32,000 nt of DNA from Mesoplasma florum L1 (GTDB taxonomy: Bacteria > Bacillota_I > Bacilli_A > Mycoplasmatales > Mycoplasmataceae), in the NCBI RefSeq assembly GCF_000008305.1, contig NC_006055.1, positions 30,001-62,000 on the forward strand, read 5' to 3'. Positions 1 to 32,000 of the stretch are shown here, one piece after another (the first letter of the stretch is position 1; the number at the start of each line of letters is the position of its first letter). The notes beneath the pieces were generated by a model that saw only the letters and a program-made list of their open reading frames with translations, had not been told where the DNA came from and searched no databases. The position numbers and the translations under genes were made by a program.

Positions 1-27
1 CCATGAAACCTATTTCATGACTATAGG
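1..27 (+). promoter_or_regulatory. Purine-riboswitch-like aptamer, 3' portion only (cut by window edge)
   Basis: P3 hairpin catgaaa/ccta/tttcatg (2-19), then AC (20-21) and the 3' P1 strand tatagg (22-27). The layout matches the complete copies at 1006-1066 and 1977-2037. Confidence 0.6.
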
Positions 28-47
28 TCTTTATAAACACTTTAATT

Positions 48-90
48 AAAGTTTCTTTCAACATCAAAACTTGAAAGAAACTTTTTATTT
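48..90 (+). terminator. Intrinsic terminator / riboswitch expression platform
   Basis: 14-bp stem aaagtttctttcaa (48-61) / ttgaaagaaacttt (71-84), 9-nt loop, then a T-rich tail. It lies between the aptamer and the lipoprotein start. Confidence 0.75.
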
Positions 91-125
91 AGTTGAATTT
101 TTAATAAAAAGAAAGGAAAAACATA

Positions 126-965
126 ATGAAAAAATTAATAGCAATTTTAGGGGCAGTTGGATTAACTGCTACAGGTTCAGCAAGTTTATTAGTTTCTTGC
201 TCAACACCAGTTGAAAAAGATTTTTCTTCTGAAATAGGCAAAATGGTAAAAGATTACATAAAAATTGATCAGGGAACTATATATGAAGATTCAAATGAAA
301 TTTATACAAAATTGAAATCGTTTAATAAAGAAATGGAATCTGAAATTTTAAAATTAAAAAATGTAGATGGAGTTTCAAAGTTTAATGAAAAAGAAGGAAC
401 ATTTTCTGATCCTGATTCAAGCATTAAACCATCAAGCGCAGATGCGGTATGATTTCATTCAGTTTACACATCATCAAGTGTAAGCGAATTCTCAAATAAT
501 AATGATTTTAATAAGTGAACAATTACTATTCAATACAGAACACCAGCAACTAATAAAACAACTGGTGAATTATATTGAGGAAAATATAATAAAACTTACA
601 TAAATGATATTGAATTTTTTAAAGCTAAAAAACCTAATGCGATATTAAAAAACTCAGATGGAACAGAGCAATCAGAAAATTCTTTTACTCTTGTAGATAA
701 TGAAGTAAAGATTAGAGTAGATAAAGGTTATAATAGAGAAAACATAATTCTTAATGGAAATGAAAAAATTACGGATATAAATATTTCACTTGATACTCAA
801 TTATTTGAAGAACCTGAAATAAAATTAGGCAATGATAAATTCCCAACATATTTTGATTTAACACTTAAATTAAAACAGGGACAAACATTATCAGTAGACC
901 AAAAAATATTTATTAAATTACCATCATTTCAAGATATTAAACTAATAATTAAAGCACAAAATTAA
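126..965 (+). CDS. Lipoprotein of unknown function (279 aa)
   Basis: Signal peptide plus lipobox MKKLIAILGAVGLTATGSASLLVSC. RBS aaagga upstream. The track ORF 126-452 continues in frame through TGA codons to TAA at 963-965, and I found no in-frame TAA/TAG. Confidence 0.8.
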
Positions 966-971
966 TAACAG

Positions 972-980
972 TGATATAAT
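972..980 (+). promoter_or_regulatory. Candidate extended -10 promoter element (TGaTATAAT)
   Basis: tgatataat lies about 25 nt upstream of the P1 of the second aptamer. AT-rich sequence makes such matches common. Confidence 0.35.
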
Positions 981-1005
981 TTTGTTAACAACTTAATATG
1001 AAAAA

Positions 1006-1066
1006 CTTATACAGGGTAGCATATTGGGCTACTGTTCCGCCTCAAGACCAATCTTGAGACTATAAG
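1006..1066 (+). promoter_or_regulatory. Purine-riboswitch-fold aptamer (guanine/2'-deoxyguanosine-like variant)
   Basis: Three-way junction. P1 cttata (1006-1011) / tataag (1061-1066). P2 gtagc-atattgg-gctac. J2/3 tgttccgc. P3 ctcaaga-ccaa-tcttgag. J3/1 is AC, with the C at the position equivalent to the specificity residue C74. The L2 GG and L3 CC needed for loop-loop pairing are present. Confidence 0.8.
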
Positions 1067-1069
1067 TGT

Positions 1070-1105
1070 AAAGGTTTTTTGGTTATCAAAAAACCTTTTT
1101 TATTA
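1070..1105 (+). terminator. Intrinsic terminator / riboswitch expression platform
   Basis: Stem aaaggtttttt (1070-1080) / aaaaaaccttt (1088-1098), loop ggttatc, followed by ttttatt. It sits directly 3' of the aptamer. Confidence 0.8.
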
Positions 1106-1148
1106 TCTAAAGTTTTTCTTTAGGTTGTATTCAAAATTAGGGGGAAAT

Positions 1149-1826
1149 ATGAAAAAATTATTAGCAATTTTAGGAGCAGTTGGATTATCAGTAACAGGAG
1201 CTTCAATAGTAGTTTCTTGTGGTGGTAATGGTAATACTGATATTACAGATCCTGAAACAGGCTTAGTTGCATTATCAAAAATAAAAAATTTAACTTTAGA
1301 TTTAGGGGAAATTGGAGAAAACAGTTCGCTGAATATATCTAAAGCTTTTTTTGAAAAAAATGAATCTGTATTAAAAAAAGCTGTTGGAGATACATTAACT
1401 GCAAATATGTTTTATGTTTCAAAAATAACTTCAACTTCAGCAACAATTACAGGTAAAAATACTAACCAGGAATTATTAAGTCCATCTGCAGATTTTGCAG
1501 TAACAGTTAGTTTTACATCAGAAAGCGATGGAAGAATAGACTTAGCAAAATTAGAAGGTCTAGTTACAAGTAATTTAATTGTTAATAAAACAAAGTATCA
1601 AGGAACAGGAAATTATGACAAATCAAATGCTATTGCAGATGCATTAATAGAAGCAAATAAAGAACTACTAAAAGAAACAGTAGCAAAAGATTTTTATTTA
1701 TTAAAGTCTGATCTTGTTGAACCGTCAGACGGCAAACCTGGTGTAGCAAAATTAGAAGGTAGCACATCAAGTTTAAAAGTAAAAAGTGGTTCACCAGTAG
1801 AAATAACATTTACACTAAGCGAATAA
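1149..1826 (+). CDS. Lipoprotein of unknown function (225 aa), two similar internal half-domains
   Basis: ATG at 1149 is preceded by the RBS aggggga. Lipobox MKKLLAILGAVGLSVTGASIVVSC. The track start at 1125 (TTG) is an unlikely extension. The signal-peptide DNA closely resembles that of the 126-965 gene. Confidence 0.8.
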   Translation: MKKLLAILGAVGLSVTGASIVVSCGGNGNTDITDPETGLVALSKIKNLTLDLGEIGENSSLNISKAFFEKNESVLKKAVGDTLTANMFYVSKITSTSATITGKNTNQELLSPSADFAVTVSFTSESDGRIDLAKLEGLVTSNLIVNKTKYQGTGNYDKSNAIADALIEANKELLKETVAKDFYLLKSDLVEPSDGKPGVAKLEGSTSSLKVKSGSPVEITFTLSE

Positions 1827-1832
1827 AACAAA

Positions 1833-1857
1833 AAATAGACATTGGTCTATTTTCTTT
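1833..1857 (+). terminator. Intrinsic terminator
   Basis: Hairpin atagac/attg/gtctat (1835-1850) followed by tttcttt. Confidence 0.6.
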
Positions 1858-1976
1858 GTGACTCTTATTTAATTTGTATATATAATAATATCACAAAAAT
1901 TAACACTTAACATTGTATTTAGTTTTTATAAAAAATAAATAATATATTATAATATCTTTAACTTAATAAAAATTAA

Positions 1977-2037
1977 CTTATACATGATAACATATCGGGT
2001 TGTCGACCTGCCTTAAGACCGATCTTAAGACTATAAG
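1977..2037 (+). promoter_or_regulatory. Purine-riboswitch-fold aptamer (variant, junction differs from the copy at 1006)
   Basis: P1 cttata (1977-1982) / tataag (2032-2037). P2 ataac-atatcgg-gttgt. J2/3 cgacctgc. P3 cttaaga-ccga-tcttaag. J3/1 is AC. Confidence 0.75.
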
Positions 2038-2070
2038 AAAATAAATATTATAAAACATTAAGTTGCTTCT

Positions 2071-2091
2071 TTTATTAAGTAATAAGTTTTT
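2071..2091 (+). terminator. Weak candidate terminator / expression platform
   Basis: 6-bp AT-rich hairpin tttatt/aagt/aataag followed by ttttt. It lies between the aptamer and the ATG at 2116. Stability is marginal. Confidence 0.35.
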
Positions 2092-2115
2092 AAAAAATAG
2101 GGGGAATATTTTTAA

Positions 2116-4194
2116 ATGAAAAAATTATTATTAACTTTATCTTCTGTAACACTTGTTGGTACAGCAGGTATGAGCGTTATCTCATGTGGGGTAAAACCAG
2201 AAAAATCTGTTATATTTATGCTTCCAGGTGAAGCTGTGGGAGTAGGATCAACAGATAAAATTGATGCTTATAATGATTTAGTTGATGAATTCAATGAATT
2301 ACATAAAAATGATTCAGGATTTGCGCCAATTAAAGTAAAGTGATCAAAATCAGGAACAATCAATGATTCAATCTTAACAGGTGATAATTTACCTGATTTA
2401 TATATAAGTTATGCAGATGCAGTTTCATTGTATGCAAATACAAAAGTATCTAATCAAGTGAGAGACATGGAAGCTTCATTAGGTGAAGCAGGATTTGCAA
2501 ACTTAAAAAATGACATAATAGATGATGCTTTTTTACAAGAAGGACAATATAAAGAACAGGGAAGTGACAAAGCAACTCAAGTTGTTTTACCATTTGGTAA
2601 ATCAGTTGAAATGTCAGTTATTAACGTAAACTTTTTCTTAGAATTTATTTCAAAAATTAGTATTACAGATTTTGATGGAGCATCAATTTCGCCTAAAGTT
2701 AAAACTGAGTTTGAAAAATTTAATGTTAATGAAAGAAAAAATTTAACTAATGAAACAGGTGCAATGTCTAAAACAACAATTTTTAGTGATAAAACTCCTA
2801 AGTTAAATGAACAATGATTCACAGAACATGGTTTAAATGATGCTTTAACAACACTACAAACTGCTTTAGCACCATTAACAAGCGTTGGATCTAGTTCATA
2901 CACAGGAGAATCTGTAGATGATCTAATTAGAACTATTTTTGCTAAAAATGATAATATAATAGCTTTAGCACAAGTTTACAACGAGATATTTAATGTTGAA
3001 AGTAATATTGAAGTTAAATATGCAAGTAAAGACGGAAGCGTTGTTGTAGATCCTTCAAATGGAAAACATTTTTCATTTGGAATTGATTCTTTAGCAAATA
3101 AATATTTTATGGACCATGCGGCTAGAACTAATAGCGGTTTAATTGATATTACTAATGAAGATAATGGTTTTTTCTACAGTGCAAATTATGATAAAGCAAC
3201 TAGAGTAGCAAACGTTAACTTTAATAAGAATTCTGTAGGATTTAATGATACATCAGAATTCTTGCAAGCTTTTAAAGATATTGCTGTTAAAAACAATAAA
3301 AGTGGTGGTTCATACGCTGAACAATGAAATAACACATTAAATTTAAGTAGACAAGAAGGTACAACAAAATACTATACAAGTGATAGCTTTTTAAATGGTT
3401 CTTCATTTATGTCAAGTGGTTCATCAGCAGGGGCTTACAATTTTACCAAAACAAAATATGTAAATAATACAGGGTATAATCCTGTTACAAATGCTGATGT
3501 AATAACAACTTCAACTTCAACTAAAGAAGGGAAAAATTCAGTTTTCATGTCTCAAGGTCCAGGAATAGCAGGATTCAAATCAAATGGTTCAAATGCAGCT
3601 GAGAAAGAGAAAACAGTTACAGAATTCTTAAATTATATTATGCAACCAAAACAAGCAGCAGATTTTGCGCTTAAATCAAATTATATGCCTGCAACAAAAT
3701 CTGGTATGTCTATATACCAAAACTATGTAAATGGTAATTACAATAATACAAAAGCAAATAATCAATCAAATGCAATAGTAAATCCAGAAGCATTACAAAA
3801 TGTTGTTGCAGAACTTAACACAAAAGAAGGAACAACAAAATATACAGTAGATAATACTTTTACTGCGATTTATTCAACAAGTAAAGGTTCATTAAGTTCA
3901 CAAGCATCTCCAAATGCAGTTAACTCAGGATTTATTGAAAAATATTTAGTTGGAAATTCAGAAAGAATATTAGTTGCTTCTACACCTACACCTATTGGTA
4001 CAACAGTTCGTGATTCAATTGCAACAGCTATTACTGGTAGTGGAACAATTACAGATTTAAGTAAAGCACCGGGAATTAAATTTGTTGAAATATTAGATGC
4101 ATCAAATACAGTTTATACATTACAAAATTATGTAATGAAAAAAAATAACACAGATATGTTTAGCAAAATTAATTTAACTCACAATGCAAAATAA
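2116..4194 (+). CDS. ABC transporter solute-binding lipoprotein, family-1 (sugar/CUT1-like), 692 aa
   Basis: Lipobox MKKLLLTLSSVTLVGTAGMSVISC. Four track ORFs (2116, 2428, 3109, 3409) share one frame and join through TGA, and I checked the gaps for TAA/TAG. It is the first gene of an ABC operon. It is much longer than typical ~420-aa binding proteins. Confidence 0.75.
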
Positions 4195-4225
4195 AAGTAA
4201 ATTTAAATAGAAAGTTTTTAAAAAC

Positions 4226-6583
4226 ATGAGTATTAAACTAAAAAATATAACAATTGACTATGGAAATTTCTTGGCGGTAAATGACCTAAGTGTAAATATT
4301 AATAAAGGGGAACTAGTTTCTCTTTTAGGACCTTCTGGTTGTGGAAAAACAACCGCATTAAATGCTATCGCAGGATTAATAAATACAACATCAGGACAAA
4401 TTCTTTTTGATGGTGTTGATGTTACACACAAAACACCTCAGCAAAGAAATATAGGACTAGTTTTTCAAAGTTACGCATTATATTCACATATGAGTGTTTT
4501 TAAGAATATTGCATATCCTTTATATCACTCAAAAGATTTTAAAAAAGAATTAGCAAGAGACAATTTTAAATATAAAAATAGATTAAAAGATCTAAAACAA
4601 ACAAAATCATACGAATTAATAATTAAACAACAAAATGATTTTTTAAATGATCTTAAAAGCTTTTTAAAATTAACAAATAATAATATTAAATTGTTAGAAA
4701 CAGAGTTTTTAAAAAAACATAAAGATTCAATTATTTCATATACTGATCAACTTTTCATAAATTATGAAAATTCAGAAGTATTAAAAAATCATTTAGTTAG
4801 CTACTTATATGACAAACTAAAAATTAAATTTAATGAAATTGAATCTGTTATAGAGTCAACAATTTTAAAAAAATATAAATTGTTATTAACTCATAAATTA
4901 GACGTTAGATTTCAAGGAACAATTGGTTATTACAGTTGATTAAATGAAAAAAATGTAAAAGATAATAAAAAACACTTGGCAGAACTTATCAAAACTAGCA
5001 AAATTTCAAAAAAACAAATTAGAAAAGAACAAAAAAAAGTTAGTGCTGAATTAGATATTTTTACTGCTTCTTCAACAGAAAATGGGTATGATAATTATAT
5101 TAATTCTAAAAACTTAATTACAAATTCTTTTATTGAGAATGAAGTAGCAGAACTTGAAAAAGAAATAAATGATTATTTTGATAAAGTTTTATTAAAAACA
5201 AAAGAACCAATTATAAAAAACAATAAAATTGAAAATTCTATTTCAAATATTTCAAAAAAAATTAATGCATTTAAAGTAAGTTATTTAAGTAAACATGAAA
5301 AATTAATTGTTAAATATATAAAAAGTATTTCAAACAAATTTCCTAATGAAATAGAAATAAAAGATAATTTAATTAATTACTTGTTTAATATATCAAAAAT
5401 AGAATTTAATTCTGTTCAAGAAAAGTTAAATGAGTTGATTTTTGAAAATATGCAAAGTTTTGTAAATTCTTGTGATAAAGATGAGTTTACTCAGTTAATA
5501 AATTATTATCCTTTAAATGTGAATGCATATTTAGAAGTTAGTGAATCAAGTAATGAACTTTTAAAAATTAATAATGAATTACAAAAGAATACTGATTTTG
5601 ATACATTAAATGATAATGAACATTATAAAAATTATCTTACTGAAAAAGAACAATTAACAGAATCATTGCTTTCAGAATTTGTTGTAAAATTGGAAAACTT
5701 TATTTCTGAAACTTTTGATAAATTACCAATTTTAGTTAATAATGAATTATCAAAAAATTCAATAAAAATTGATATTTCGGAATTAGAATCAGAAATTAGA
5801 AAAAATATTTTTTCAAAAAAACGTAAAATAAGATCATTAGTTTTAGAAGCTGCAAAACAAGTTGAAATTGAAACACAATTAAATAAAAAACCAAGTGAAT
5901 TATCTGGTGGACAACAACAAAGGGTTGCTATCGCAAGGGCTGTTGTAAAAAAACCAAGTATTTTACTTATGGACGAACCATTATCAAATCTTGATGCAAA
6001 ATTACGTTTAACAACTAGAGAATGAATTAAAAAATTTCAACAAAAAGTTGGAATAACAACTGTTTTTGTTACTCACGATCAAGAAGAAGCAATGAGTATT
6101 TCTGACTCAATTTTTGTTATGAATAAAGGGGTTTTACAACAAGGCGGAACTCCATTAGAAATTTATAATAAACCAAAAAATAAATTTGTAGCAAACTTTA
6201 TAGGAACACCTAATATTAATTTCATTGATGTTAAAGTCAAAAAATCTATTTTTGAATTGCCTTCAGGCGAGGAAATGACTATTAAAAATTTAAAAATTGA
6301 AAAAGAAAATTGAACTTTAGGAATTAGACCTGAAAGAATAAGTATTTCAGGAACTAAAGGTAAAATTTTCATTGGAGAAGGTGAAGTTTCTCTTGTCGAA
6401 CAATTAGGAAAACAAAATCATATTAAAGTTCGCTTAAATAAAGAATTGGAAATTACTTTAATATTAGAGCCACATGAATGAAATAATTTAAAAAATTCTT
6501 CAGTGTTAAAGCTTTATGCTAGAAAAGAAGACTTATACTTATTTGATACAAATACAAATTTAGTAGAGGTAAAATATGCGTAA
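4226..6583 (+). CDS. ABC transporter ATP-binding protein, MalK/UgpC-like, with a ~430-aa insertion (785 aa)
   Basis: Walker [11 protein letters not shown]-loop VFQSYALY, signature [14 protein letters not shown], Walker [14 protein letters not shown]-loop VTHD, and a C-terminal regulatory-type domain (FIGTPNINF...). Track ORFs 4226, 4976 and 6092 are in one frame, ending at TAA 6581-6583. Confidence 0.9.
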
Positions 6584-7565
6584 AAATAAGAAAGATGAAG
6601 GTTTTGTTTTAATTGATGATAGAGTTATAAATCCTAAAGGTAAAAAAGCAAAATCTAAAAATATGGAAAAAGGAAGATTTGACCTAATAAACCAATTAAT
6701 TTGGGTTTTACCAGGTTTATTCTTTGTATGTATATTTTCATACTTTTCAATTTTTATTGTTTTTAAATATGGATTAAGTGCGAATGGTGCAAATGGTGTT
6801 TTTATATTAAGCATTAAAAATATAGGTAATTTATTTACTGAGCCTACGCATGAATTTCCAATAGCGTTAAGAAATACTTTAATTTATGTTTTAGTTTCAG
6901 TGCCAATTTCATTGCTGATTGCACTTTGAACTGCCAAAGCATTAAGTAACGTTTTAAGTAAAAGAGCTTTTGCTTTTTTCCAATCAGCTTTCTTTTTACC
7001 ATATGTAACATCAGCACTTGCTGTTGCTATGGCTTTCTCAATATTATTTTCAACAAGTGATACATCTCTTTTAACACAATTATTAGCTAAATTAGGTTTA
7101 TCAAGGGTTGATTGAAAAGAACCTAAAAATGCTATGATAATGTTAATCATTTATGGTGTTTGAAAAATGTTACCTTTTAAAATTATTATGTTTACAGCAG
7201 CATTTTTAAGAGTTGATAAGCGATTATATCAAGCAGCATCTATAGACGGTGTACCAAGATGACAACAATTTTGAAAAATTTCTGTTCCTCAAATTATGCC
7301 AGTTATTATTTATATGATTACAACTGGTATTATTGGTTCATTTAAATTTATGCCTTTTGGTTTATTTGCTAACTATGAGGAAGCGGTTAAATCACAAGCT
7401 CAAACAGCAGTGTTCTTTATCTTTTCAAGAATTAACTCTGGTTCAGGAGGATTACCATCATATAGTACTGGTGGAGCAGCTTCTATAGTATTAATGGTTA
7501 TTATTTTAATTATGACGTTAGCTAATAGACAATTAAGTAAGTACTTAAACAAAAAATATAGATAG
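6576..7565 (+). CDS. ABC transporter permease (MalF/UgpA-like), 329 aa
   Basis: The ATG overlaps the ATPase stop by 8 nt. Multiple hydrophobic segments. EAA-type loop ASIDGVPRWQQFWKISVPQIMP. ORFs 6576 and 7296 join in frame through TGA. Confidence 0.85.
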
Positions 7566-7573
7566 GATTCAGC

Positions 7574-8899
7574 ATGGAAAAAATAAATAACGAGTGAAGT
7601 AAAAAAACTAAAACTGAAGATTGAATTCACAAAAATTCATTTAAAAAGATTTCTGTTAAAGATAAATCTTTTAATCAATCTGAATCTAATGTTGATTCCA
7701 TTATTTATGTTGAAAAAACAACAAAAGTTGTTAGTTCTGAAAAAGATAAACATGAAATAGTTGTAAATAAATTAACAAGAAAAGAAAAATATGAAAATGA
7801 TTTAAAATTTCAAGAAGAACAAATAACTTTAAGAGAATCTAAAATTGTTGTTGAAGCTAACTTTTTTAAGAGAATATGATTAAAGTTTTGTTTATCATTA
7901 TTTTTATTTTGAAATAAAAAACATTTTAAAATTAAGCACGCATTTTATATAAGATCAGTAAATAAAAGAAAAGATAAAACAATTAAAATGGCTGGTGATG
8001 TTTGATATAGAAGAATAGGGTCAAATTTATCAAACTATACAGTTTTAATTATTATGCTTATCGCCATGATATTTCCTTTTTATTGAATGTTAATAACATC
8101 TTTTAAGCCTTATTCAGAAGTTGACACAGGAGTAATGGAATCTCTTTGACCAAAACATTGAACATTACAAGCATATAAAGATATGTTTACATTTGTTAAT
8201 AATTCTGGTGGTAGAGAATCAATTCCATTTTCAAGATTTTTCTTTAACTCATTGTTCATTGCGTTAGTTTCAACTTTAGTGCAATTATCAGTGTCAGTTA
8301 TTGGTGGATTTGCAATTTATAACTGAAGAACAAAATTTAATTCATTATTTATGATTATTATGTTTTCAATTATGATGGTTCCAGGTGAGGCTATGTTGCT
8401 TGGTAGATATTGAATTGCAGTTCAAATGCAATGAAGAGATACTTTATTTGCCTTAATTGTTCCATTTATCGGTAACGTATTTACCATATACTTAATGAGT
8501 AATGCTTTTTACGGATTAAATAGAGATTTAAAAAGAGCAGCTAAAGTAGATGGATTATCAAGTTTTCAATACTTTATGAAAATAGCTTTACCTGCAGTTA
8601 GTGCAACTATATTAACATCATTTATTATTTCATTTATTGAATCATGAAACTCTGTTTTATGACCAATAACAGTTATTGATAATCAATCTGGACAATGAAG
8701 AACAATTCCAATGCTTTTATATTCACTAATGAATGTTAGTGGTATGACATCAGAAGAATTCCCAATTGCTGATCCTATTAATGTAAAAATGGCTGCCTCA
8801 ATTTTAGCTATTTTACCAATGATTATTGTATTTATTGTTTTCAATAAATGAATTATTAATGGTTTAACAAAAAGAAGCGTTGGAGGAACTAAGGGATAA
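7574..8899 (+). CDS. ABC transporter permease (MalG/UgpE-like) with a ~140-aa N-terminal extension, 441 aa
   Basis: Absent from the track because it has 15 in-frame TGA codons by my count. Hand translation gives no TAA/TAG. EAA loop RAAKVDGLSSFQYFMKIALPAVS. Ends at TAA 8897-8899. Confidence 0.85.
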
Positions 8900-10035
8900 T
8901 GAGAAAAAAAATAAACTTGCTATTTTTAAGCATGATACTTACTTTAATAGCTTTTTTGTCTATTTTAACAGTTTCTTGTGGAACTAAAATAAAAGAAATT
9001 ACCGGCAATGTTTCATTTTATGTATTATCAATTGGAAGTGGAAATTTTACTTTTTTAGAAAAAGATGGTCATGCAGTTGTAATGGATTCTGGGGTTGGTA
9101 TTGGTGAAAATAACAATGGAGATTCAATTGATTCAATATCATCAGAAACATTTGCTTTAAATAACGGAAGTTGAGTAACTGCAAATCCAAGGGATGGTAA
9201 AGCAATTACAGATTTTATGAAGAATACAGCTGGAGTTCAAGTTATTGATGCTATATTTATTTCGCACAAACATTCAGATCATTATAGTGCTTTAAAATAT
9301 CTTGTTCAGGAATTTGAAGTAGGAACTGTTATTGCTCCTACAGATAGTGCAGGTTTAGAAAAAGCAATCAGAGGTTACCAACCAAAAGGTCAAATGCCAG
9401 TAGTTGATACAAATTTTTCGAAGACTTATGAATTTTTAGGTGGAACATTTGAAAATTTAACAGCATATTCTTCAAAAAATGTTGTTAAAAGTTTATACAC
9501 AACAGATGATCCAAATGCCAATAGTATGGTTTTAAGATTTAAGGTAAATGGTAAAACATTTTTATTACCTGGAGATATGGAAAATACTTCAAAAGTTATG
9601 AGCGACAAAAAATTTTTAAAAGCAGTTTCATCACAACCTGTGGACTTTTATTTACTTGCTCATCATGGGTCAACAAATGGGGCCACTGAATTAACACCAT
9701 TAATTGGTAATAAAGAACGCTCTCCAGAACATATAATAATATCTGGTACAGATAATATTGATGGTTTTGAAAATTGATCAGGACAAAGAAATGCAGTGAG
9801 CAATTCAAAAACTCCTGTTGGTGAAGTTTTAAAAACATATGGTATGAAAAAAGAACCTTATGTATACATAACAGGCTCAGTTTTAACTGAAACTTTAAAT
9901 GATTTTCCTGACATAGTTGATAAAGATAATGTAAAATCAACGTTTGAATATAAATTCTCTGATAACAAATGAAATTTTATAGTTCATGATGAAAATATTT
10001 CAAATGGGTTTAATCAACAGTTAATTACTAAATAA
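8899..10035 (+). CDS. Surface lipoprotein with ComEC/Rec2-type metallo-beta-lactamase-fold hydrolase domain, 378 aa
   Basis: TAATG overlap with the upstream permease. Lipobox LSILTVSCGT. MBL motifs VVMDSGVG, HKHSDH (HxHxDH), LLPGDME and LLAHHGS. ORFs 8899 and 9217 join in frame, ending at TAA 10033-10035. Confidence 0.8.
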
Positions 10036-10039
10036 ATAA

Positions 10040-10084
10040 TTAAAAAGTTTTGTTCATGTTTGAATAAAACTTTTTAATTTGTTT
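10040..10084 (+). terminator. Intrinsic terminator closing the ABC operon
   Basis: 12-bp stem ttaaaaagtttt (10040-10051) / aaaactttttaa (10067-10078), followed by tttgtttt. Confidence 0.7.
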
Positions 10085-10144
10085 TATAAGTTTTGTTGTT
10101 TGAATTTTATTTTGTTAAAATAAATAAAAGAAAAGAGTGATTTT

Positions 10145-18711: not shown

Positions 18712-19365
18712 TTAATATATTTTATTTTTCAACGGTGTTAATGTATAACAAATAATTGGTATTGTTATCAAATATAATAGTAAATCAAATACAGAGTTAA
18801 CTGCATTAACACTCATTGAATATATTCAAACCCCTTGACCTTCAGGGGCATATTGTCCATAAAATAAAACGCCCGCAAAAGTTTTTGATCAGAAGCCTAA
18901 AAATGAATAAATTATTATAACTAATATAAAAACCCATCTATTTAAAATTCATAAACTAATTCTTTTAACGTTGAATTTAACTCTGTCTCAAAATTTTAAA
19001 TTTACATTTGCTTTTTCTAAATATTGTTTGTACTCTCTTGGAATAAAAACACTGCATAAAGCAACTAAAAGAAGCGGAATAAAATAATCAAATAAATATG
19101 CCAAAGGAATTGCTGAATCGTAGTTTGCAGGCATGAAGAATGCTATTATACCTGCCAAGAAAACAACAATTAGTGTTCGTAATCAATCTGTATAACAAGC
19201 TAAAACAAATAATGGTATAAATTGTAAATTTAATGTTATAAAAAATGGCGGTATACTATATCCCGCTATTAAATTTAATACTAAATACAAAGATAACATC
19301 AAACCCATAACAGCAATATCTTTTGTTGTTATCTTTTTAATGCTCAAATAAAAATATCTTTTCAT
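18712..19365 (-). CDS. thiT: Thiamine transporter, ThiT-like membrane protein, 217 aa
   Basis: The track ORF 19183-19365 continues through TGA codons to TAA at 18712-18714 (frame checked). Polytopic hydrophobic protein. It lies directly downstream of a TPP riboswitch. The function is inferred mainly from that context. Confidence 0.65.
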
Positions 19366-19399
19366 GTAAAAGAACCTCCTACATAAAAAGACAGAAAAA

Positions 19400-19500
19400 A
19401 TATTTTAGGACTTCCTACGCTAGTATTAACTAGATCAGGTTCTAAGAGTATTTCTCAAGCTTTCGCTACCTCTGCCTTCTTACTCTTTAATAGTAGCATT
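19400..19500 (-). promoter_or_regulatory. TPP (THI-box) riboswitch
   Basis: The minus-strand RNA reads ...agcgaaagcuUGAGAaauacucuuagaACCUGAUCUAGUUAAUACUAGCGUAGGAAguccu... This matches the conserved UGAGA and ACCUGAUCUGGAUAAUGCCAGCGUAGGGAA cores of TPP riboswitches. I could not assign P1 confidently. Confidence 0.85.
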
Positions 19501-25797: not shown

Positions 25798-26030
25798 ATG
25801 TTTAAAGTAAAATTTGCCGACATTGGAGAAGGGCTTACTGAAGGAAAAGTAGCAGAAGTTCTTGTTAAATTAGGGCAAGAAATAAAAGAAGGAGATGCTT
25901 TATTTTTTGTTGAGACAGATAAAGTTAACTCTGAAATTCCAGCACCAGTTGGTGGAAAGATTGCAAATATTTTAATTTCTCAAGGACAAGAAATTAAAGT
26001 TGGAGATGTTGTTATTGAAATTGATGATGG
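25798..26030 (+). repeat. Direct repeat copy 1 (lipoyl-domain coding segment)
   Basis: 233 nt matching 27082-27314. The first 167 nt are identical and I count 4 mismatches overall. Confidence 0.9.
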
Positions 26031-27066: not shown

Positions 27067-28890
<1,824 letters not shown>

Positions 28891-29861: not shown

Positions 29862-31052
29862 ATGATTTTAGTAGTTAATGCAGGAAGTAGTTCAATTAAA
29901 TTTAGATTATTTAATGATTTAGATAAAAGCAATCCAATTGATATTCTTGATGGTTTAGCAGAAAGAATAACTGTTGATGGTGCAGTTTCATTTAAATATG
30001 AAGGTAAAAAATATGAATATAATGTTGAATTACCAAATCATGAAGTAGCAATTAAGTTTATTTTAGATAAATTAATTGAATTAAATATTATCAGCAATGT
30101 AGATGATATAAATGCTGTAGGATTCAGGGTTGTTCATGGTGGAACAATAAGTAAATCTTCAATTATAGATCAAAAAGTCTTTGACACAATTAAAGATGCA
30201 GTTAAATTAGCACCATTGCATAATCCAGGGGCTATAACAGCCATTGAGGCCATTGAAAAAGTTATGCCTAAAGCTAAATTGGTAGCATGCTTTGATACAG
30301 CATATCATCAAACTTTAGCTGAAGAACAATATTTATACGCAGTTCCTTATTCTTGATATAAAGAACATGGTGTAAGAAAATACGGTTTTCATGGTATTAG
30401 TTACCAATACATAGCAGAAAAAATGTCAGAAGTATTAGCCAAACCTAAAGACCAATTAAATCTTATCGTTTGCCACTTAGGTAACGGTGCAAGTATAACA
30501 TGTATTAAAAATGGTAAATCATTTGATACAACAATGGGATTAACTCCTCTCGCTGGTGTAATGATGGGAACAAGAAGTGGTGATATTGATCCATCAATTA
30601 TCGAATACATGTGTAAAGAATTACAATTGGACGTTTCAAAAATAACAAATATTTTAAATAAAGAATCAGGTCTGTTAGGATTAAGCGGAAAATCAAGTGA
30701 TATGCGCGATGTAACTGGTGGATATTTTAAAGGTGATGAAGATTACAAAAGAGCACTTAACAAATATACACAAGTTTCTGCGGACTATATCATTAGATTT
30801 GCAAACTTATTAGGACACAATATTGATGGTATTGTTTTCACAGCTGGTGTTGGTGAAAATTCAATTCATACAAGACAATTTATTTTAGAAAAATTACCTT
30901 TATTAGATATTGAAATTGATAATGCTAAAAATGAAGAAAGTTATGGAGACTATAAATATATATCTTCACCAAATTCAAAAATAAAAGTATTAGCGGTTAG
31001 AACTAATGAAGAATTAATGATTTGTAAAGATACAATCAATTTAACTAAATAG
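29862..31052 (+). CDS. ackA: Acetate kinase, 396 aa
   Basis: N-terminus ILVVNAGSSSIKF, plus HRVVHGG-like FRVVHGG and GFHGIS. ORFs 29862 and 30423 are in one frame. Confidence 0.95.
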
Positions 31053-31056
31053 AATT

Positions 31057-31084
31057 AAAAATAACCATTAAGGTTATTTTTTTA
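31057..31084 (+). terminator. Intrinsic terminator
   Basis: Stem aaaataacc / ggttatttt with loop attaa, followed by a T-run. Confidence 0.75.
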
Positions 31085-31125
31085 TCTTTTAAATTATAAT
31101 TAATAATAAATAAATGAGGTGAAAC

Positions 31126-31926
31126 ATGAAAAGAGTATTATTTATAGGTTTAGGTCATATGGGTTCTTCACTTGTTAAGGGAGTTTTAAAAAATTCAAAT
31201 AATAAAATAGAAGTTTTTGGATACGATGTAATAAAAGAAGTTCAAGATAAAGCAATAAAAAATATTCAAGGGCTAAGACCTTTAAAAGATATTTCAGAAA
31301 TAGAACTTAAAAAAATAGATTATATTGTCATAGGGACAAGACCTATTGATGTTGAACCTTTATGTAAAAATATGGATCAATTAAACATTGATGGAAAAAC
31401 TATTATTTGTATGGCGAATGCAGTTACAATAGAAGATGTTCAGAATAATTTTGTAAAAAATAAGAAAGTTTCAGTAATTAGAATGATGCCAAACATGAAT
31501 GCTTCTATACAAAAATCTGTGACAGCTTTAGCAACTAAAAATGCATCAAATGAAACAATGAAATTTGTTTCTGAAATGTTTGAACTTTGTGGAATAGTGG
31601 AAAATATTGATGAAGATAAATTTGGAACACTAACAGCTATTTCTGGTTGCTCACCATCTTATATAATTTCATTTTTTAAAGCTATGACTGATTATGCAAT
31701 TGATAAAGGTTTCGAAAAAGAACAAGCCTTTAGAATAATAGAAGAGGCAATCATAGGAAGTGTTATGAATGCATCAAAATCAGAAGTAGAGTTAAGAACA
31801 ATGGTCGATCAAATTTGTGTTCCAAATGGATCAACTATTGAAGGGCAAAAAATTTTAGATAATAAAAACTTTGAAAAAATAATTCAAGAAGCACTGACAG
31901 CAGCAACTAAAAAAGCAACAAAATAA
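31126..31926 (+). CDS. proC: Pyrroline-5-carboxylate reductase family protein, 266 aa
   Basis: N-terminal Rossmann motif FIGLGHMGSSL. C-terminal dimerisation-domain motif resembling SPGGTT (VPNGSTIEG). Confidence 0.7.
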   Translation: MKRVLFIGLGHMGSSLVKGVLKNSNNKIEVFGYDVIKEVQDKAIKNIQGLRPLKDISEIELKKIDYIVIGTRPIDVEPLCKNMDQLNIDGKTIICMANAVTIEDVQNNFVKNKKVSVIRMMPNMNASIQKSVTALATKNASNETMKFVSEMFELCGIVENIDEDKFGTLTAISGCSPSYIISFFKAMTDYAIDKGFEKEQAFRIIEEAIIGSVMNASKSEVELRTMVDQICVPNGSTIEGQKILDNKNFEKIIQEALTAATKKATK

Positions 31927-31928
31927 AA

Positions 31929-31950
31929 AAATCGGGGAAACCCGATTTTA
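31929..31950. terminator. Bidirectional intrinsic terminator
   Basis: Stem atcggg / cccgat with GAAA tetraloop (31931-31946), flanked by an A-run and a T-run. Confidence 0.8.
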
Positions 31951-31952
31951 AT

Positions 31953-32000
31953 TTAAAATTTCTTAGCAGCAGCAATCAAATCAGAAGTTATTGATGAAAC
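31953..32000 (-). CDS. C-terminal end of an unidentified minus-strand gene (partial)
   Basis: The reverse strand reads ...VSSITSDLIAAAKKF then stop (TAA = complement of 31953-31955). Too short to identify. Confidence 0.4.
   Translation of the reverse strand, partial: VSSITSDLIAAAKKF

What the first reader, a model, noticed from the sequence alone, without database searches (positions are those of the whole stretch)
1..2091. Three tandem purine-riboswitch-fold aptamers with non-canonical binding pockets, each gating a lipoprotein gene
The same architecture occurs three times within 2.1 kb: P1 cttata/tataag, P2 with an AUAU(U/C)GG loop, a 7-bp P3, and AC before the 3' P1 strand. The first copy is cut by the window edge. 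Each is followed by a hairpin plus T-run and then a lipoprotein ORF. All three keep the C that in guanine-class riboswitches pairs with the ligand (the C74 equivalent). The two complete copies also keep the L2 GG, and all three keep the L3 CC. They depart from the canonical guanine aptamer as I recall it. J1/2 starts with C instead of U. L3 is only 4 nt (ccta, ccaa, ccga). J2/3 is UGUUCCGC in one complete copy and CGACCUGC in the other, against canonical GUUUCUAC. The two complete copies therefore have different pockets and may sense different purine compounds. No terminator follows the first lipoprotein gene, so copy 2 may also gate read-through transcripts. Mesoplasma florum is known to carry guanine-riboswitch variants selective for 2'-deoxyguanosine (Kim, Roth and Breaker 2007). 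I cannot tell from memory whether these exact loci were characterised.
Basis: partly seen in the sequence, partly recalled or inferred. Interest (0 to 1): 0.7.

Follow-up and report, generated by a model that had tools for sequence, protein, structure and literature searches.

The report
Known Mesoplasma florum 2'-deoxyguanosine riboswitches, three in tandem
The three RNA elements are real purine-type riboswitch aptamers, but they belong to the 2'-deoxyguanosine (2'-dG-I) riboswitch class already described in Mesoplasma florum, sitting in front of surface lipoprotein genes and a probable nucleic-acid-precursor importer, so this is a correct rediscovery and not a new element.

Summary
Window 1005-1067 and 1976-2038 are full-length hits to Rfam RF01510 (2dG-I; 85.6 and 81.3 bits against a cut-off of 51). 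Window 1-28 is the 3' end of a third copy, which scores 87.4 bits once the upstream DNA is added.

The window is M. florum L1, genome positions 30001-62000. That is the organism in which this class was defined (Kim, Roth and Breaker 2007). A published transcription-unit table for L1 already marks the leader terminators of copies 1 and 2 as riboswitch terminators. It also maps a separate transcription start in front of each aptamer.

Copy 1 is about 90% identical over its whole leader to the experimentally studied type I-A (nrd) riboswitch, with the same pocket. Copies 1 and 2 have strong terminators, and the antiterminator pairing is the one shown for I-A, so both are predicted OFF switches.

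Copy 3 differs in three ways:
- It has U where I-A has the ligand-contacting C58.
- It looks like a chimera of two aptamer types.
- It has no convincing terminator.

It precedes an ABC importer operon that ends in a ComEC-like metallo-hydrolase lipoprotein.

Novelty: already known. What remains open is the ligand and mechanism of copy 3. The class is also more widespread in Mesoplasma than the literature I could read states.

The parts
1..28 (+). 3' part of aptamer copy 1 (P3, L3, J3/1 and the 3' strand of P1). The full aptamer starts 36 nt before the window.
   Evidence: RF01510 model positions 36-63, 30.3 bits, cut at the 5' end. The complete copy is at L001 8817-8880, 87.4 bits. Every nucleotide outside the P3 stem and one P1 pair is identical to the published I-A aptamer.
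48..90 (+). Intrinsic terminator of riboswitch copy 1: 14-bp stem 48-61/71-84, then UUAUUU at 85-90. The 5' half (T strand) can alternatively pair with the 5' flank plus the 5' strand of P1.
   Evidence: Folding. Duplex energies are T:H -15.7 and P:T -8.8 kcal/mol. A terminator at 30050-30081 in L1 (-9.7 kcal/mol) is flagged as a riboswitch terminator. It is homologous to the I-A terminator.
126..965 (+). Lipoprotein gene, 279 aa (peg.21), three TGA = Trp codons, no known family.
   Evidence: Code 4 translation. Only the lipoprotein signal-peptide model matches. FPKM 3249 in L1.
972..987 (+). Promoter of riboswitch copy 2: TGATATAAT extended -10 at 972-980, mapped transcription start at 987.
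   Evidence: 5'-RACE start 30986-30987 and -10 box 30974-30980 in L1, RSPM 1704. Sequence.
1005..1067 (+). Aptamer copy 2, J2/3 GUUCCGC (probably Kim's type II-A; the label is from memory).
   Evidence: RF01510, 85.6 bits, full length. It differs at 3 of 63 positions from the M. coleopterae ortholog.
1000..1011 (+). P strand of copy 2 (5' flank plus the 5' strand of P1, GAAAAACUUAUA), predicted to pair with the 5' half of the terminator in the ligand-free state.
   Evidence: Growing-transcript folds at 90-100 nt. Duplex energy -9.4 kcal/mol. Flank and terminator change together in the M. coleopterae endonuclease leader (GCAAAAAC with GUUUUUGC). The same architecture is shown experimentally for I-A.
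1070..1104 (+). Intrinsic terminator of riboswitch copy 2: stem 1070-1098 (13 pairs) followed by a U-run.
   Evidence: The terminator scan found it as the only hit in the region. Folding. L1 terminator at 31072-31095, -8.1 kcal/mol.
1149..1826 (+). Lipoprotein gene, 225 aa (peg.22), an orphan restricted to the genus.
   Evidence: Only two homolog clusters in 5.8 billion proteins, both from Mesoplasma. No Pfam family. The structure model was unusable, pLDDT 38.
1834..1851 (+). Weak terminator hairpin after peg.22.
   Evidence: Sequence aatagacattggtctatt followed by ttctttg. L1 terminator at 31835-31849, -3.6 kcal/mol.
1945..1960 (+). Promoter of riboswitch copy 3 (TATTATAAT at 1945-1953), mapped transcription start at 1960.
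   Evidence: 5'-RACE start 31959-31960 and -10 box 31947-31953, RSPM 1288, 5'-UTR 156 nt, unit TU_023.
1976..2038 (+). Aptamer copy 3, J1/2 CAU, variant P2, J2/3 GACCUGC (probably Kim's type II-B; the label is from memory). It has U at the position of I-A C58.
   Evidence: RF01510, 81.3 bits. Its 5' half is 34/36 identical to the M. grammopterae guaA aptamer. Its 3' half is 27/27 identical to the M. coleopterae aptamer at the orthologous site.
2056..2093 (+). Conserved leader element after copy 3: two AUUAAGU repeats complementary to the transcript's 5' end, plus a weak hairpin at 2062-2083 followed by a U5 run. The expression platform is unresolved.
   Evidence: Folding. Comparison of four species. 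No terminator is listed in this leader for L1.
2116..10035 (+). Five-gene operon under copy 3: P68/P80-like substrate-binding lipoprotein (2116-4194), MalK/UgpC-type ATPase with a large insertion (4226-6583), two permeases (6576-7565 and 7574-8899), and a metallo-beta-lactamase-fold lipoprotein (8899-10035).
   Evidence: Pfam and NCBIfam. Homolog names and SBP_bac_8 in a homolog. PDB matches to sugar/UgpB binding proteins and to CbpE and the ComEC MBL domain. A single unit, TU_023, in L1.

Best explanation
These are three of the known 2'-dG-I class riboswitches of Mesoplasma florum L1. They are arranged as three consecutive, separately promoted leader RNAs.

Each aptamer is a shortened-loop version of the purine three-way junction. 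A guanine-type nucleoside is expected to pair with the conserved J3/1 cytosine (the C74/C80 equivalent).

Copies 1 and 2 (inferred). When ligand locks P1, the 5' strand of P1 cannot invade the downstream T strand. The terminator hairpin then forms and transcription stops before the lipoprotein gene. Without ligand, the 5' flank plus the 5' strand of P1 pairs with the T strand as an antiterminator, and the gene is transcribed. This is an OFF switch.

Copy 1 is a near-duplicate of the whole nrd (type I-A) riboswitch, so it should respond to 2'-deoxyguanosine in the same way.

Copy 3 (inferred). It controls an ABC importer operon that includes a ComEC-like metallo-hydrolase lipoprotein. This operon is probably a scavenging system for DNA breakdown products. 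Its altered pocket (U in place of C58) and the lack of a clear terminator mean that both its ligand preference and its read-out are uncertain.

What is shown: family membership, covariation, mapped transcription starts, the terminators of copies 1 and 2, and sequence identity to I-A.

What is inferred: ligand identity for each copy, OFF-switch behaviour, and transporter substrate.
For: Family and organism:
- RF01510 hits of 81-87 bits against a cut-off of 51 for all three copies.
- Window gene coordinates equal the L1 table coordinates minus 30000, and a 100% identical protein is named from M. florum L1.
- Published 5'-RACE starts lie 16-18 nt upstream of each aptamer. The authors' curation note says terminators in this cluster are riboswitch terminators.
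- McCown 2017 counts four 2'-dG-I examples, all in M. florum. One is the nrd riboswitch. I infer that the three here are the other three; I could not scan the rest of the genome to confirm this.

Mechanism of copies 1 and 2:
- The copy 1 leader is 152/169 identical to the published I-A sequence, including J1/2, L2, J2/3, L3, J3/1, the T and H strands and the U-tract.
- For I-A, NMR and SHAPE show that the antiterminator is formed by nts 9-23 (5' flank plus the 5' strand of P1) with the 5' half of the terminator.
- The same complementarity appears in the transcription-intermediate folds of copies 1 and 2. It is kept, with changed sequence, in orthologous leaders.

Fold: P2 and P3 covary.

Gene context fits a deoxynucleoside signal:
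- The last gene of the copy 3 operon matches the ComEC MBL nuclease domain and the CbpE phosphodiesterase.
- M. coleopterae has the same aptamer type in front of an Endonuclease_1 gene.
- 2'-dG-II riboswitches are reported upstream of ComEC and endonuclease I genes.
- The P80 lipoprotein-nuclease-ABC operon of M. agalactiae is proposed to import nucleic-acid precursors.
Against: - I could not read Kim et al. 2007. The ligand data for these three particular aptamers, and the labels I-B, II-A and II-B, rest on my memory and on secondary statements.
- Copy 3 carries U at the C58 position. That position is described as critical for nucleoside-versus-nucleobase selectivity, and C51U weakened 2'-dG binding 18-fold in a 2'-dG-II aptamer.
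- The same copy 3 core in M. grammopterae precedes guaA and a Bmp-type nucleoside transporter, genes typical of guanine riboswitch regulons.
- The copy 3 leader folds no better than shuffled sequence (z = 0.12) and has no terminator in the L1 table.
- All three downstream units are well expressed in rich medium (FPKM 681-5505). That gives no direct sign of repression.
- The transporter is annotated as a glycerol-3-phosphate type and its substrate is unknown.
Confidence: 0.88

Rival explanations
1. Copy 3 (and possibly copy 2) is not a 2'-dG-selective sensor. It would respond mainly to guanine, guanosine or the pooled guanine nucleosides, so the tandem array reads out more than one purine signal.
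For: - Copy 3 has U at the C58/U51 position, as guanine riboswitches do. That position governs base-versus-nucleoside choice.
- An almost identical sensing half (34/36) precedes guaA, and a similar one precedes a Bmp-type nucleoside ABC transporter in M. grammopterae, each with a clear terminator.
- From memory, the abstract of Kim 2007 says some M. florum variants still bind guanine or adenine and that 'one variant type' is 2'-dG selective.
Against: - Copy 3 keeps the J1/2 C (the C31 equivalent) and the G at the A52 position, as I-A does.
- Rfam scores it at 81 bits in the 2dG-I model.
- McCown 2017 counts four 2'-dG-I representatives in M. florum, which fits only if these copies are included.
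- The operon context (ComEC-like hydrolase) suits a DNA-derived signal.
Confidence: 0.3
2. Copy 3 is a decayed or non-regulating aptamer. It would be kept as a leader structure, for example for mRNA stability, with no ligand-dependent control of the operon.
For: - There is no convincing terminator, and no pairing with the Shine-Dalgarno sequence in any predicted fold.
- The leader's folding energy equals that of shuffles.
- The operon is highly expressed.
- The aptamer looks like a recombination product.
Against: - The aptamer is intact: all helices pair and the L2 GG and L3 CC are kept.
- It is identical in M. florum strains whose proteins differ by 4-9%.
- An aptamer is kept at the same site in three other species, together with conserved leader motifs downstream.
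Confidence: 0.1
3. The three elements are merely copies of a dispersed intergenic repeat with no sensing function.
For: The 5' flank, aptamer and terminator are duplicated as a block, and assemblies break at these repeats (several contigs start 10 nt before peg.22).
Against: - Compensatory changes in P2 and P3 preserve the fold.
- Junction nucleotides are nearly invariant.
- Each copy lies between a mapped start site and a start codon.
- The near-identical I-A copy is an experimentally proven riboswitch.
Confidence: 0.02

Closest known systems
2'-dG-I riboswitch class (Rfam RF01510), type I-A of the M. florum ribonucleotide reductase (nrd) leader; crystal structure 3SKI
   Same: - Same organism and same covariance model.
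- Same short L2 and L3 loops with GG-CC contacts, 7-bp P3, J1/2 C and J3/1 C.
- Copy 1 has the same junction and loop nucleotides and a homologous terminator and antiterminator (about 90% identity over the leader).
- Copy 2 has the same P/A/T/H layout.
   Different: - The downstream genes are lipoproteins and an ABC importer, not nrd.
- Copy 2 has J2/3 GUUCCGC, one nucleotide shorter than I-A.
- Copy 3 has GACCUGC with U at the C58 position, a different P2, and no clear terminator.
Guanine riboswitch (Rfam RF00167, B. subtilis xpt)
   Same: Three-way junction, loop-loop kissing through two G-C pairs, ligand pairing to C74, and an OFF switch by termination. Copy 3 shares U at position 51.
   Different: - J1/2 begins with C, not U22.
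- L3 has 4 nt and L2 has 7 nt with different contacts.
- J2/3 is C-rich.
- The 2dG-I model outscores the Purine model within the clan.
2'-dG-II riboswitches (environmental Bacteroidetes-type sequences)
   Same: Nucleoside-sensing derivatives of the guanine fold. They are reported upstream of ComEC and endonuclease I genes. The same gene families appear under 2dG-I aptamers here: an MBL ComEC-like lipoprotein in M. florum and Endonuclease_1 in M. coleopterae.
   Different: Different first-shell set (U22, C51, C74), xpt-like loops, and a distant phylum. They are regarded as an independent origin.
P80 lipoprotein - SNase - ABC transporter operon of Mycoplasma agalactiae and the M. hominis group
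   Same: A large surface lipoprotein predicted to be the binding protein, a sugar-type ABC ATPase, two permeases and a surface hydrolase in one operon, proposed to import nucleic-acid precursors. peg.23 hits the P68 family model below its cut-off, and one of its homologs is named a P80 family lipoprotein.
   Different: - The hydrolase here has a metallo-beta-lactamase fold, not SNase, and lies last in the operon.
- The similarity to P68/P80 is below the family cut-off.
- No riboswitch is reported for the M. agalactiae operon.

Membership tests
2'-dG-I riboswitch (RF01510) | Covariance-model score above the curated gathering score over the full aptamer | tested here: met
   87.4, 85.6 and 81.3 bits against a gathering score of 51, model positions 1-63 of 63.
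2'-dG-I riboswitch (RF01510) | Shortened loops (7-nt L2, 4-nt L3) keeping the L2 GG and L3 CC, with a 7-bp P3 | tested here: met
   Alignments to the model. P2 and P3 are supported by 8 pairs with compensatory changes.
2'-dG-I riboswitch (RF01510) | First-shell nucleotides C31, C58 and C80 (I-A numbering; equivalent to xpt U22, U51 and C74) | tested here: inconclusive
   Copies 1 and 2 have C, C, C. Copy 3 has C, U, C (numbering, checked against the I-A sequence).
2'-dG-I riboswitch (RF01510) | Selective binding of 2'-deoxyguanosine over guanine and guanosine | not testable with these tools
   This needs in-line probing or ITC. The primary paper with any such data for these copies could not be read.
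2'-dG-I riboswitch (RF01510) | Transcriptional OFF switch: a terminator whose 5' half can alternatively pair with the 5' flank plus the 5' strand of P1 | tested here: inconclusive
   Met for copies 1 and 2. Not met in any clear way for copy 3.
Guanine riboswitch (RF00167) | U22, U51 and C74 with xpt-type J2/3 and 7-nt kissing loops; best-scoring model within the purine clan | tested here: not met
   J1/2 starts with C in all copies and L3 has 4 nt. Within clan CL00123 the retained best hit is 2dG-I, not Purine.
P68/P80 family mollicute surface lipoprotein (binding protein of a nuclease-linked ABC importer) | Match to NCBIfam NF045826 above its cut-off | tested here: not met
   56.6 bits against a cut-off of 200. 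The relation is distant. One homolog carries SBP_bac_8 and one is named a P80 family lipoprotein.

The most novel reading that the evidence does not exclude
Copy 3 may be a functionally distinct sub-class. It would be a recombinant aptamer joining the sensing half found upstream of guaA and a nucleoside transporter in M. grammopterae to the local P3. It has U at the C58 position. It may sense guanine or guanosine rather than 2'-dG, and it may control the importer operon by something other than intrinsic termination. If so, the tandem array integrates two different purine signals over a DNA-scavenging gene island. It would also give the first regulatory evidence that the P80-type mollicute ABC systems import nucleic-acid breakdown products.
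Probability: 0.25. Interest if true: 0.45.

Novelty: already known. Interest (0 to 1): 0.15.

Why it matters
The call itself adds nothing new. These are riboswitches of the class defined in M. florum L1 and are already annotated there.

What this analysis adds:
- Copy 1 is a whole-leader duplicate of the heavily studied nrd riboswitch, so results on I-A should carry over to it.
- Copy 3 departs at a ligand-contacting nucleotide and lacks a normal expression platform. That makes it the one element here worth a binding and termination assay.
- The genes under this aptamer type across Mesoplasma include a ComEC-like hydrolase, endonuclease I, a P80-like importer, guaA and a Bmp transporter. This points to control of DNA and nucleoside scavenging.
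- The class is not confined to four copies in one species, as the papers I could read state.

Tried and rejected
- Primary literature. Reading Kim et al. 2007, Edwards and Batey 2009, Pikovskaya 2011 and Weinberg 2017 all failed because they are not held. The labels I-B, II-A and II-B and any binding constants for these copies could not be verified.
- Full-text searches for the aptamer sequences of copies 1-3 found nothing. A search for 'II-B' with deoxyguanosine and riboswitch found nothing useful.
- A pattern scan of one genome per species found only M. grammopterae. M. florum, M. coleopterae, M. entomophilum and M. tabanidae match the pattern but were not returned. That collection evidently lacks or masks them, so it cannot be used to judge distribution.
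- The same pattern found nothing in metagenome contigs.
- A structure prediction of the 225-aa lipoprotein from a three-sequence alignment was unusable (pLDDT 38), so no fold search was run.
- Pfam and NCBIfam gave no family for the two small lipoproteins beyond the signal peptide.
- For copy 3 I looked for a translational platform or a terminator with constrained and growing-transcript folds. No state-dependent pairing with the Shine-Dalgarno sequence emerged, and no conserved terminator.
- I rejected the reading that these are plain guanine riboswitches (see membership test) and the reading that they are a function-less repeat (covariation).
Full report
**What is in the sequence**

The region is AT-rich (28% G+C over the window) and uses TGA as tryptophan, so ORFs were called with genetic code 4. 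Rfam cmscan at curated thresholds returns two full-length hits to RF01510, '2dG-I riboswitch aptamer (M. florum)'. They lie at 1005-1067 (85.6 bits) and 1976-2038 (81.3 bits), against a gathering score of 51. A permissive scan adds window 1-28 as the 3' part of a third copy, covering model positions 36-63 and cut by the window edge.

Fetching the flanking DNA through an exact-protein look-up gave a record in which the first copy is complete (L001 8817-8880) and scores 87.4 bits.

**Where the window comes from**

The published transcription-unit table for M. florum L1 is Matteau et al. 2020, Dataset EV3. It lists these genes:
- peg.21 at 30125-30965
- peg.22 at 31148-31826
- peg.23-27 at 32115-40035

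These are the window's ORF coordinates plus 30000. The 692-aa protein is 100% identical to one named from M. florum L1 on a 793,224-bp contig. The window is therefore M. florum L1, positions 30001-62000, the organism in which this riboswitch class was defined.

[quoted passage not shown] The first two of those are the leader terminators of copies 1 and 2. The third, at 31835-31849, is the ordinary terminator after peg.22 and lies upstream of the copy 3 promoter.

McCown et al. 2017 state that only four 2'-dG-I examples are known, all in M. florum. One is the nrd (type I-A) riboswitch. I infer that the three here are the other three. From memory, these are Kim's I-B, II-A and II-B, but I could not open that paper to confirm the labels or its binding data.

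**Transcription architecture**

Each aptamer has its own promoter and a 5'-RACE-mapped transcription start 16-18 nt upstream:

| Copy | Start in L1 | Window position | -10 element | RSPM |
|---|---|---|---|---|
| 1 | 29946 | 53 nt before the window | 29934-29940 in L1 | 123 |
| 2 | 30986 | 987 | TGATATAAT, 972-980 | 1704 |
| 3 | 31959 | 1960 | TATTATAAT, 1945-1953 | 1288 |

No terminator follows peg.21. The authors' table includes units that run from the copy 1 promoter into the copy 2 terminator or through it (TU_018, TU_020, TU_021).

**Copies 1 and 2: mechanism**

Both aptamers are followed within a few nucleotides by strong hairpins and U-runs. Copy 1 has a 14-bp stem at 48-61/71-84, then UUAUUU. 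Copy 2 has a 13-pair stem at 1070-1098, then a U-run.

Folding growing transcripts shows what happens before the 3' half of each terminator is made. The 5' flank plus the 5' strand of P1 (AAGAAACUU in copy 1, GAAAAACUUAUAC in copy 2) pairs with the 5' half of the terminator. The duplex energies are -8.8 and -9.4 kcal/mol for this pairing, against -15.7 and -14.4 for the terminators themselves.

This is the P/A/T/H scheme established for the I-A riboswitch. NMR and SHAPE show an antiterminator between nts 9-23 and the 'AT strand', which 2'-dG binding disfavours.

Aligning the published I-A leader to copy 1 gives 152 identical of 169 aligned positions. The identity covers the 5' flank, J1/2, P2, L2, J2/3, L3, J3/1, the T and H strands, the U-tract and the region up to the Shine-Dalgarno sequence. 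The differences in P3 are compensatory. Copy 1 is thus a duplicate of the entire nrd riboswitch and should behave as a 2'-dG-responsive OFF switch.

Copy 2 shares the layout (82% identity) but has J2/3 GUUCCGC. Its M. coleopterae ortholog differs at only three positions, two of them in J2/3 (GACCCGC).

In orthologous leaders the flank and the terminator change together. In the M. coleopterae endonuclease leader, GCAAAAAC in the flank goes with GUUUUUGC in the terminator. This supports the antiterminator model.

**Copy 3: what differs**

- Pocket. Counting from the published I-A numbering (C31, C58, C80), copy 3 has C, U, C. The C58/U51 position is described as critical for nucleoside-versus-nucleobase selectivity, and a C51U change cost a 2'-dG-II aptamer 18-fold in 2'-dG affinity.
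- Origin. The 5' half of copy 3 (J1/2, P2, L2, J2/3) is 34/36 identical to an aptamer upstream of guaA in M. grammopterae, but only 26/36 identical to the aptamer at the orthologous site in M. coleopterae. Its 3' half (P3, L3, P1) is 27/27 identical to the M. coleopterae ortholog and 20/27 to the guaA type. This looks like recombination between aptamer types.
- Platform. The leader folds no better than shuffles (z = 0.12). The only hairpin before a U-run is 7 bp with two G-U pairs (2062-2083, -3.8 kcal/mol). The U-run is replaced by AAUUUGUA in three other species, while the hairpin and two AUUAAGU repeats are conserved. No terminator is listed in this leader for L1. Neither free nor aptamer-constrained folds change the pairing of the Shine-Dalgarno sequence.

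In M. grammopterae the same core sits in front of clear terminators at guaA and at a Bmp-type lipoprotein plus ABC ATPase. The ligand and read-out of copy 3 therefore remain open. I put about 0.3 on a guanine or guanosine preference.

**The genes controlled**

The two small lipoproteins (279 and 225 aa) have no family beyond the signal peptide. The 225-aa protein has homologs only in Mesoplasma, and its structure model was unusable.

The copy 3 operon encodes five proteins:
- A 692-aa lipoprotein distantly related to the P68/P80 mollicute lipoproteins and to sugar/UgpB binding proteins.
- A MalK/UgpC-type ATPase whose ABC domain is split by roughly 400 residues.
- Two permeases.
- A lipoprotein with a metallo-beta-lactamase fold. 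Its best matches are the ComEC/Rec2 nuclease domain and the CbpE phosphodiesterase.

In M. agalactiae, a P80 lipoprotein-nuclease-ABC operon has been proposed to import nucleic-acid precursors. 2'-dG-II riboswitches are reported upstream of ComEC and endonuclease I genes. In M. coleopterae an RF01510 aptamer directly precedes an Endonuclease_1 gene. Taken together, a role in scavenging DNA breakdown products, shut off when deoxyguanosine is plentiful, is the most economical reading. It remains an inference.

**Wider distribution**

Five orthologous loci of about 14 kb were scanned: two further M. florum strains, M. coleopterae, M. entomophilum and M. tabanidae. They contain 19 RF01510 hits of 64-91 bits, up to six per locus. 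M. grammopterae has three more. On 15 distinct sequences the fold is supported by 8 pairs with changes on both sides. The statements that the class is confined to M. florum therefore look outdated. I could not check whether Rfam's full alignment already lists these sites.

**Verdict**

The element is already known and annotated at these coordinates, so overall interest is low. The only open points are the specificity and mechanism of copy 3 and the substrate of the importer it controls.

Noticed in passing
window 19395-19483 (-): A TPP riboswitch (RF00059, 64.5 bits against a cut-off of 54.3) lies upstream of a 217-aa membrane protein gene at 18712-19365 (-), probably a thiamine transporter. 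The L1 table gives this gene (peg.35) a 118-nt 5'-UTR.
   Followed up: partly
L010 637-699, 1951-2012, 4147-4210, 4871-4933, 5857-5919, 13978-14039; L011; L012; L008; L009: RF01510 aptamers are abundant outside M. florum L1. There are 19 hits in five 14-kb loci from M. florum strains, M. coleopterae, M. entomophilum and M. tabanidae, including one directly upstream of an Endonuclease_1 gene. Published statements say there are only four examples, all in M. florum.
   Followed up: partly
L006 7206-7268 (+); L007 3007-3069 (-); L005 4732-4795 (-): M. grammopterae carries copy-3-type aptamers (J2/3 GACCUGC), each with a clear terminator, upstream of guaA and upstream of a Bmp-like lipoprotein plus ABC ATPase. 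It also has a type-I aptamer upstream of nrdF-nrdI-nrdE.
   Followed up: partly
window 1976-2038: Copy 3 looks chimeric. Its 5' half is 34/36 identical to the M. grammopterae guaA aptamer. Its 3' half is 27/27 identical to the aptamer at the orthologous site in M. coleopterae. This suggests recombination or gene conversion between aptamer copies.
   Followed up: partly
window 988-996 with 1120-1128; L001 8800-8809 with window 86-95; window 1960-1972 with 2056-2080: The first 10 or so nucleotides of each mapped transcript are complementary to a segment just after the terminator or late in the leader. They could form a long-range helix enclosing the whole riboswitch in read-through transcripts. 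The pairing is kept, with changed sequence, in other species and in the nrd leader. Its function is unknown; protection of the 5' end is one possibility.
   Followed up: partly
window 4226-6583 (+): The ABC ATPase of the operon has its nucleotide-binding domain split by a Lys/Glu/Asn-rich insertion of roughly 400 residues. Pfam ABC_tran matches residues 18-115, and the match resumes after about residue 530.
   Followed up: no
window 25798-25964 and 27082-27248 (+): Two adjacent genes of 422 and 602 aa start with the same 167 nt (56 identical residues, [17 protein letters not shown]...). From its sequence I take this shared start to be a duplicated lipoyl-type domain, and the genes to be the E2 and E3 components of a 2-oxoacid dehydrogenase operon. 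No family search was run.
   Followed up: partly
L010 13978-14039; L012 13979-14041; compare window 10036-10144: M. coleopterae and M. tabanidae have a degenerate RF01510 aptamer (64-71 bits) right after the metallo-hydrolase lipoprotein gene. The equivalent M. florum intergenic region has only a terminator-like hairpin and no aptamer hit.
   Followed up: partly
L001 6622-8739 (upstream of the window): A 705-aa paralog (about 41% identity) of the operon's binding lipoprotein lies immediately upstream of copy 1, preceded by another ABC ATPase gene. The lipoprotein at the peg.21 position varies widely in size between strains and species (279, 277, 188, 172 and 164 aa).
   Followed up: no
M. florum L1 95278-95429 (outside the window): The L1 transcription-unit table flags a 151-nt leader with a predicted terminator upstream of purA (peg.74) as a 'Possible new riboswitch?'.
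   Followed up: no
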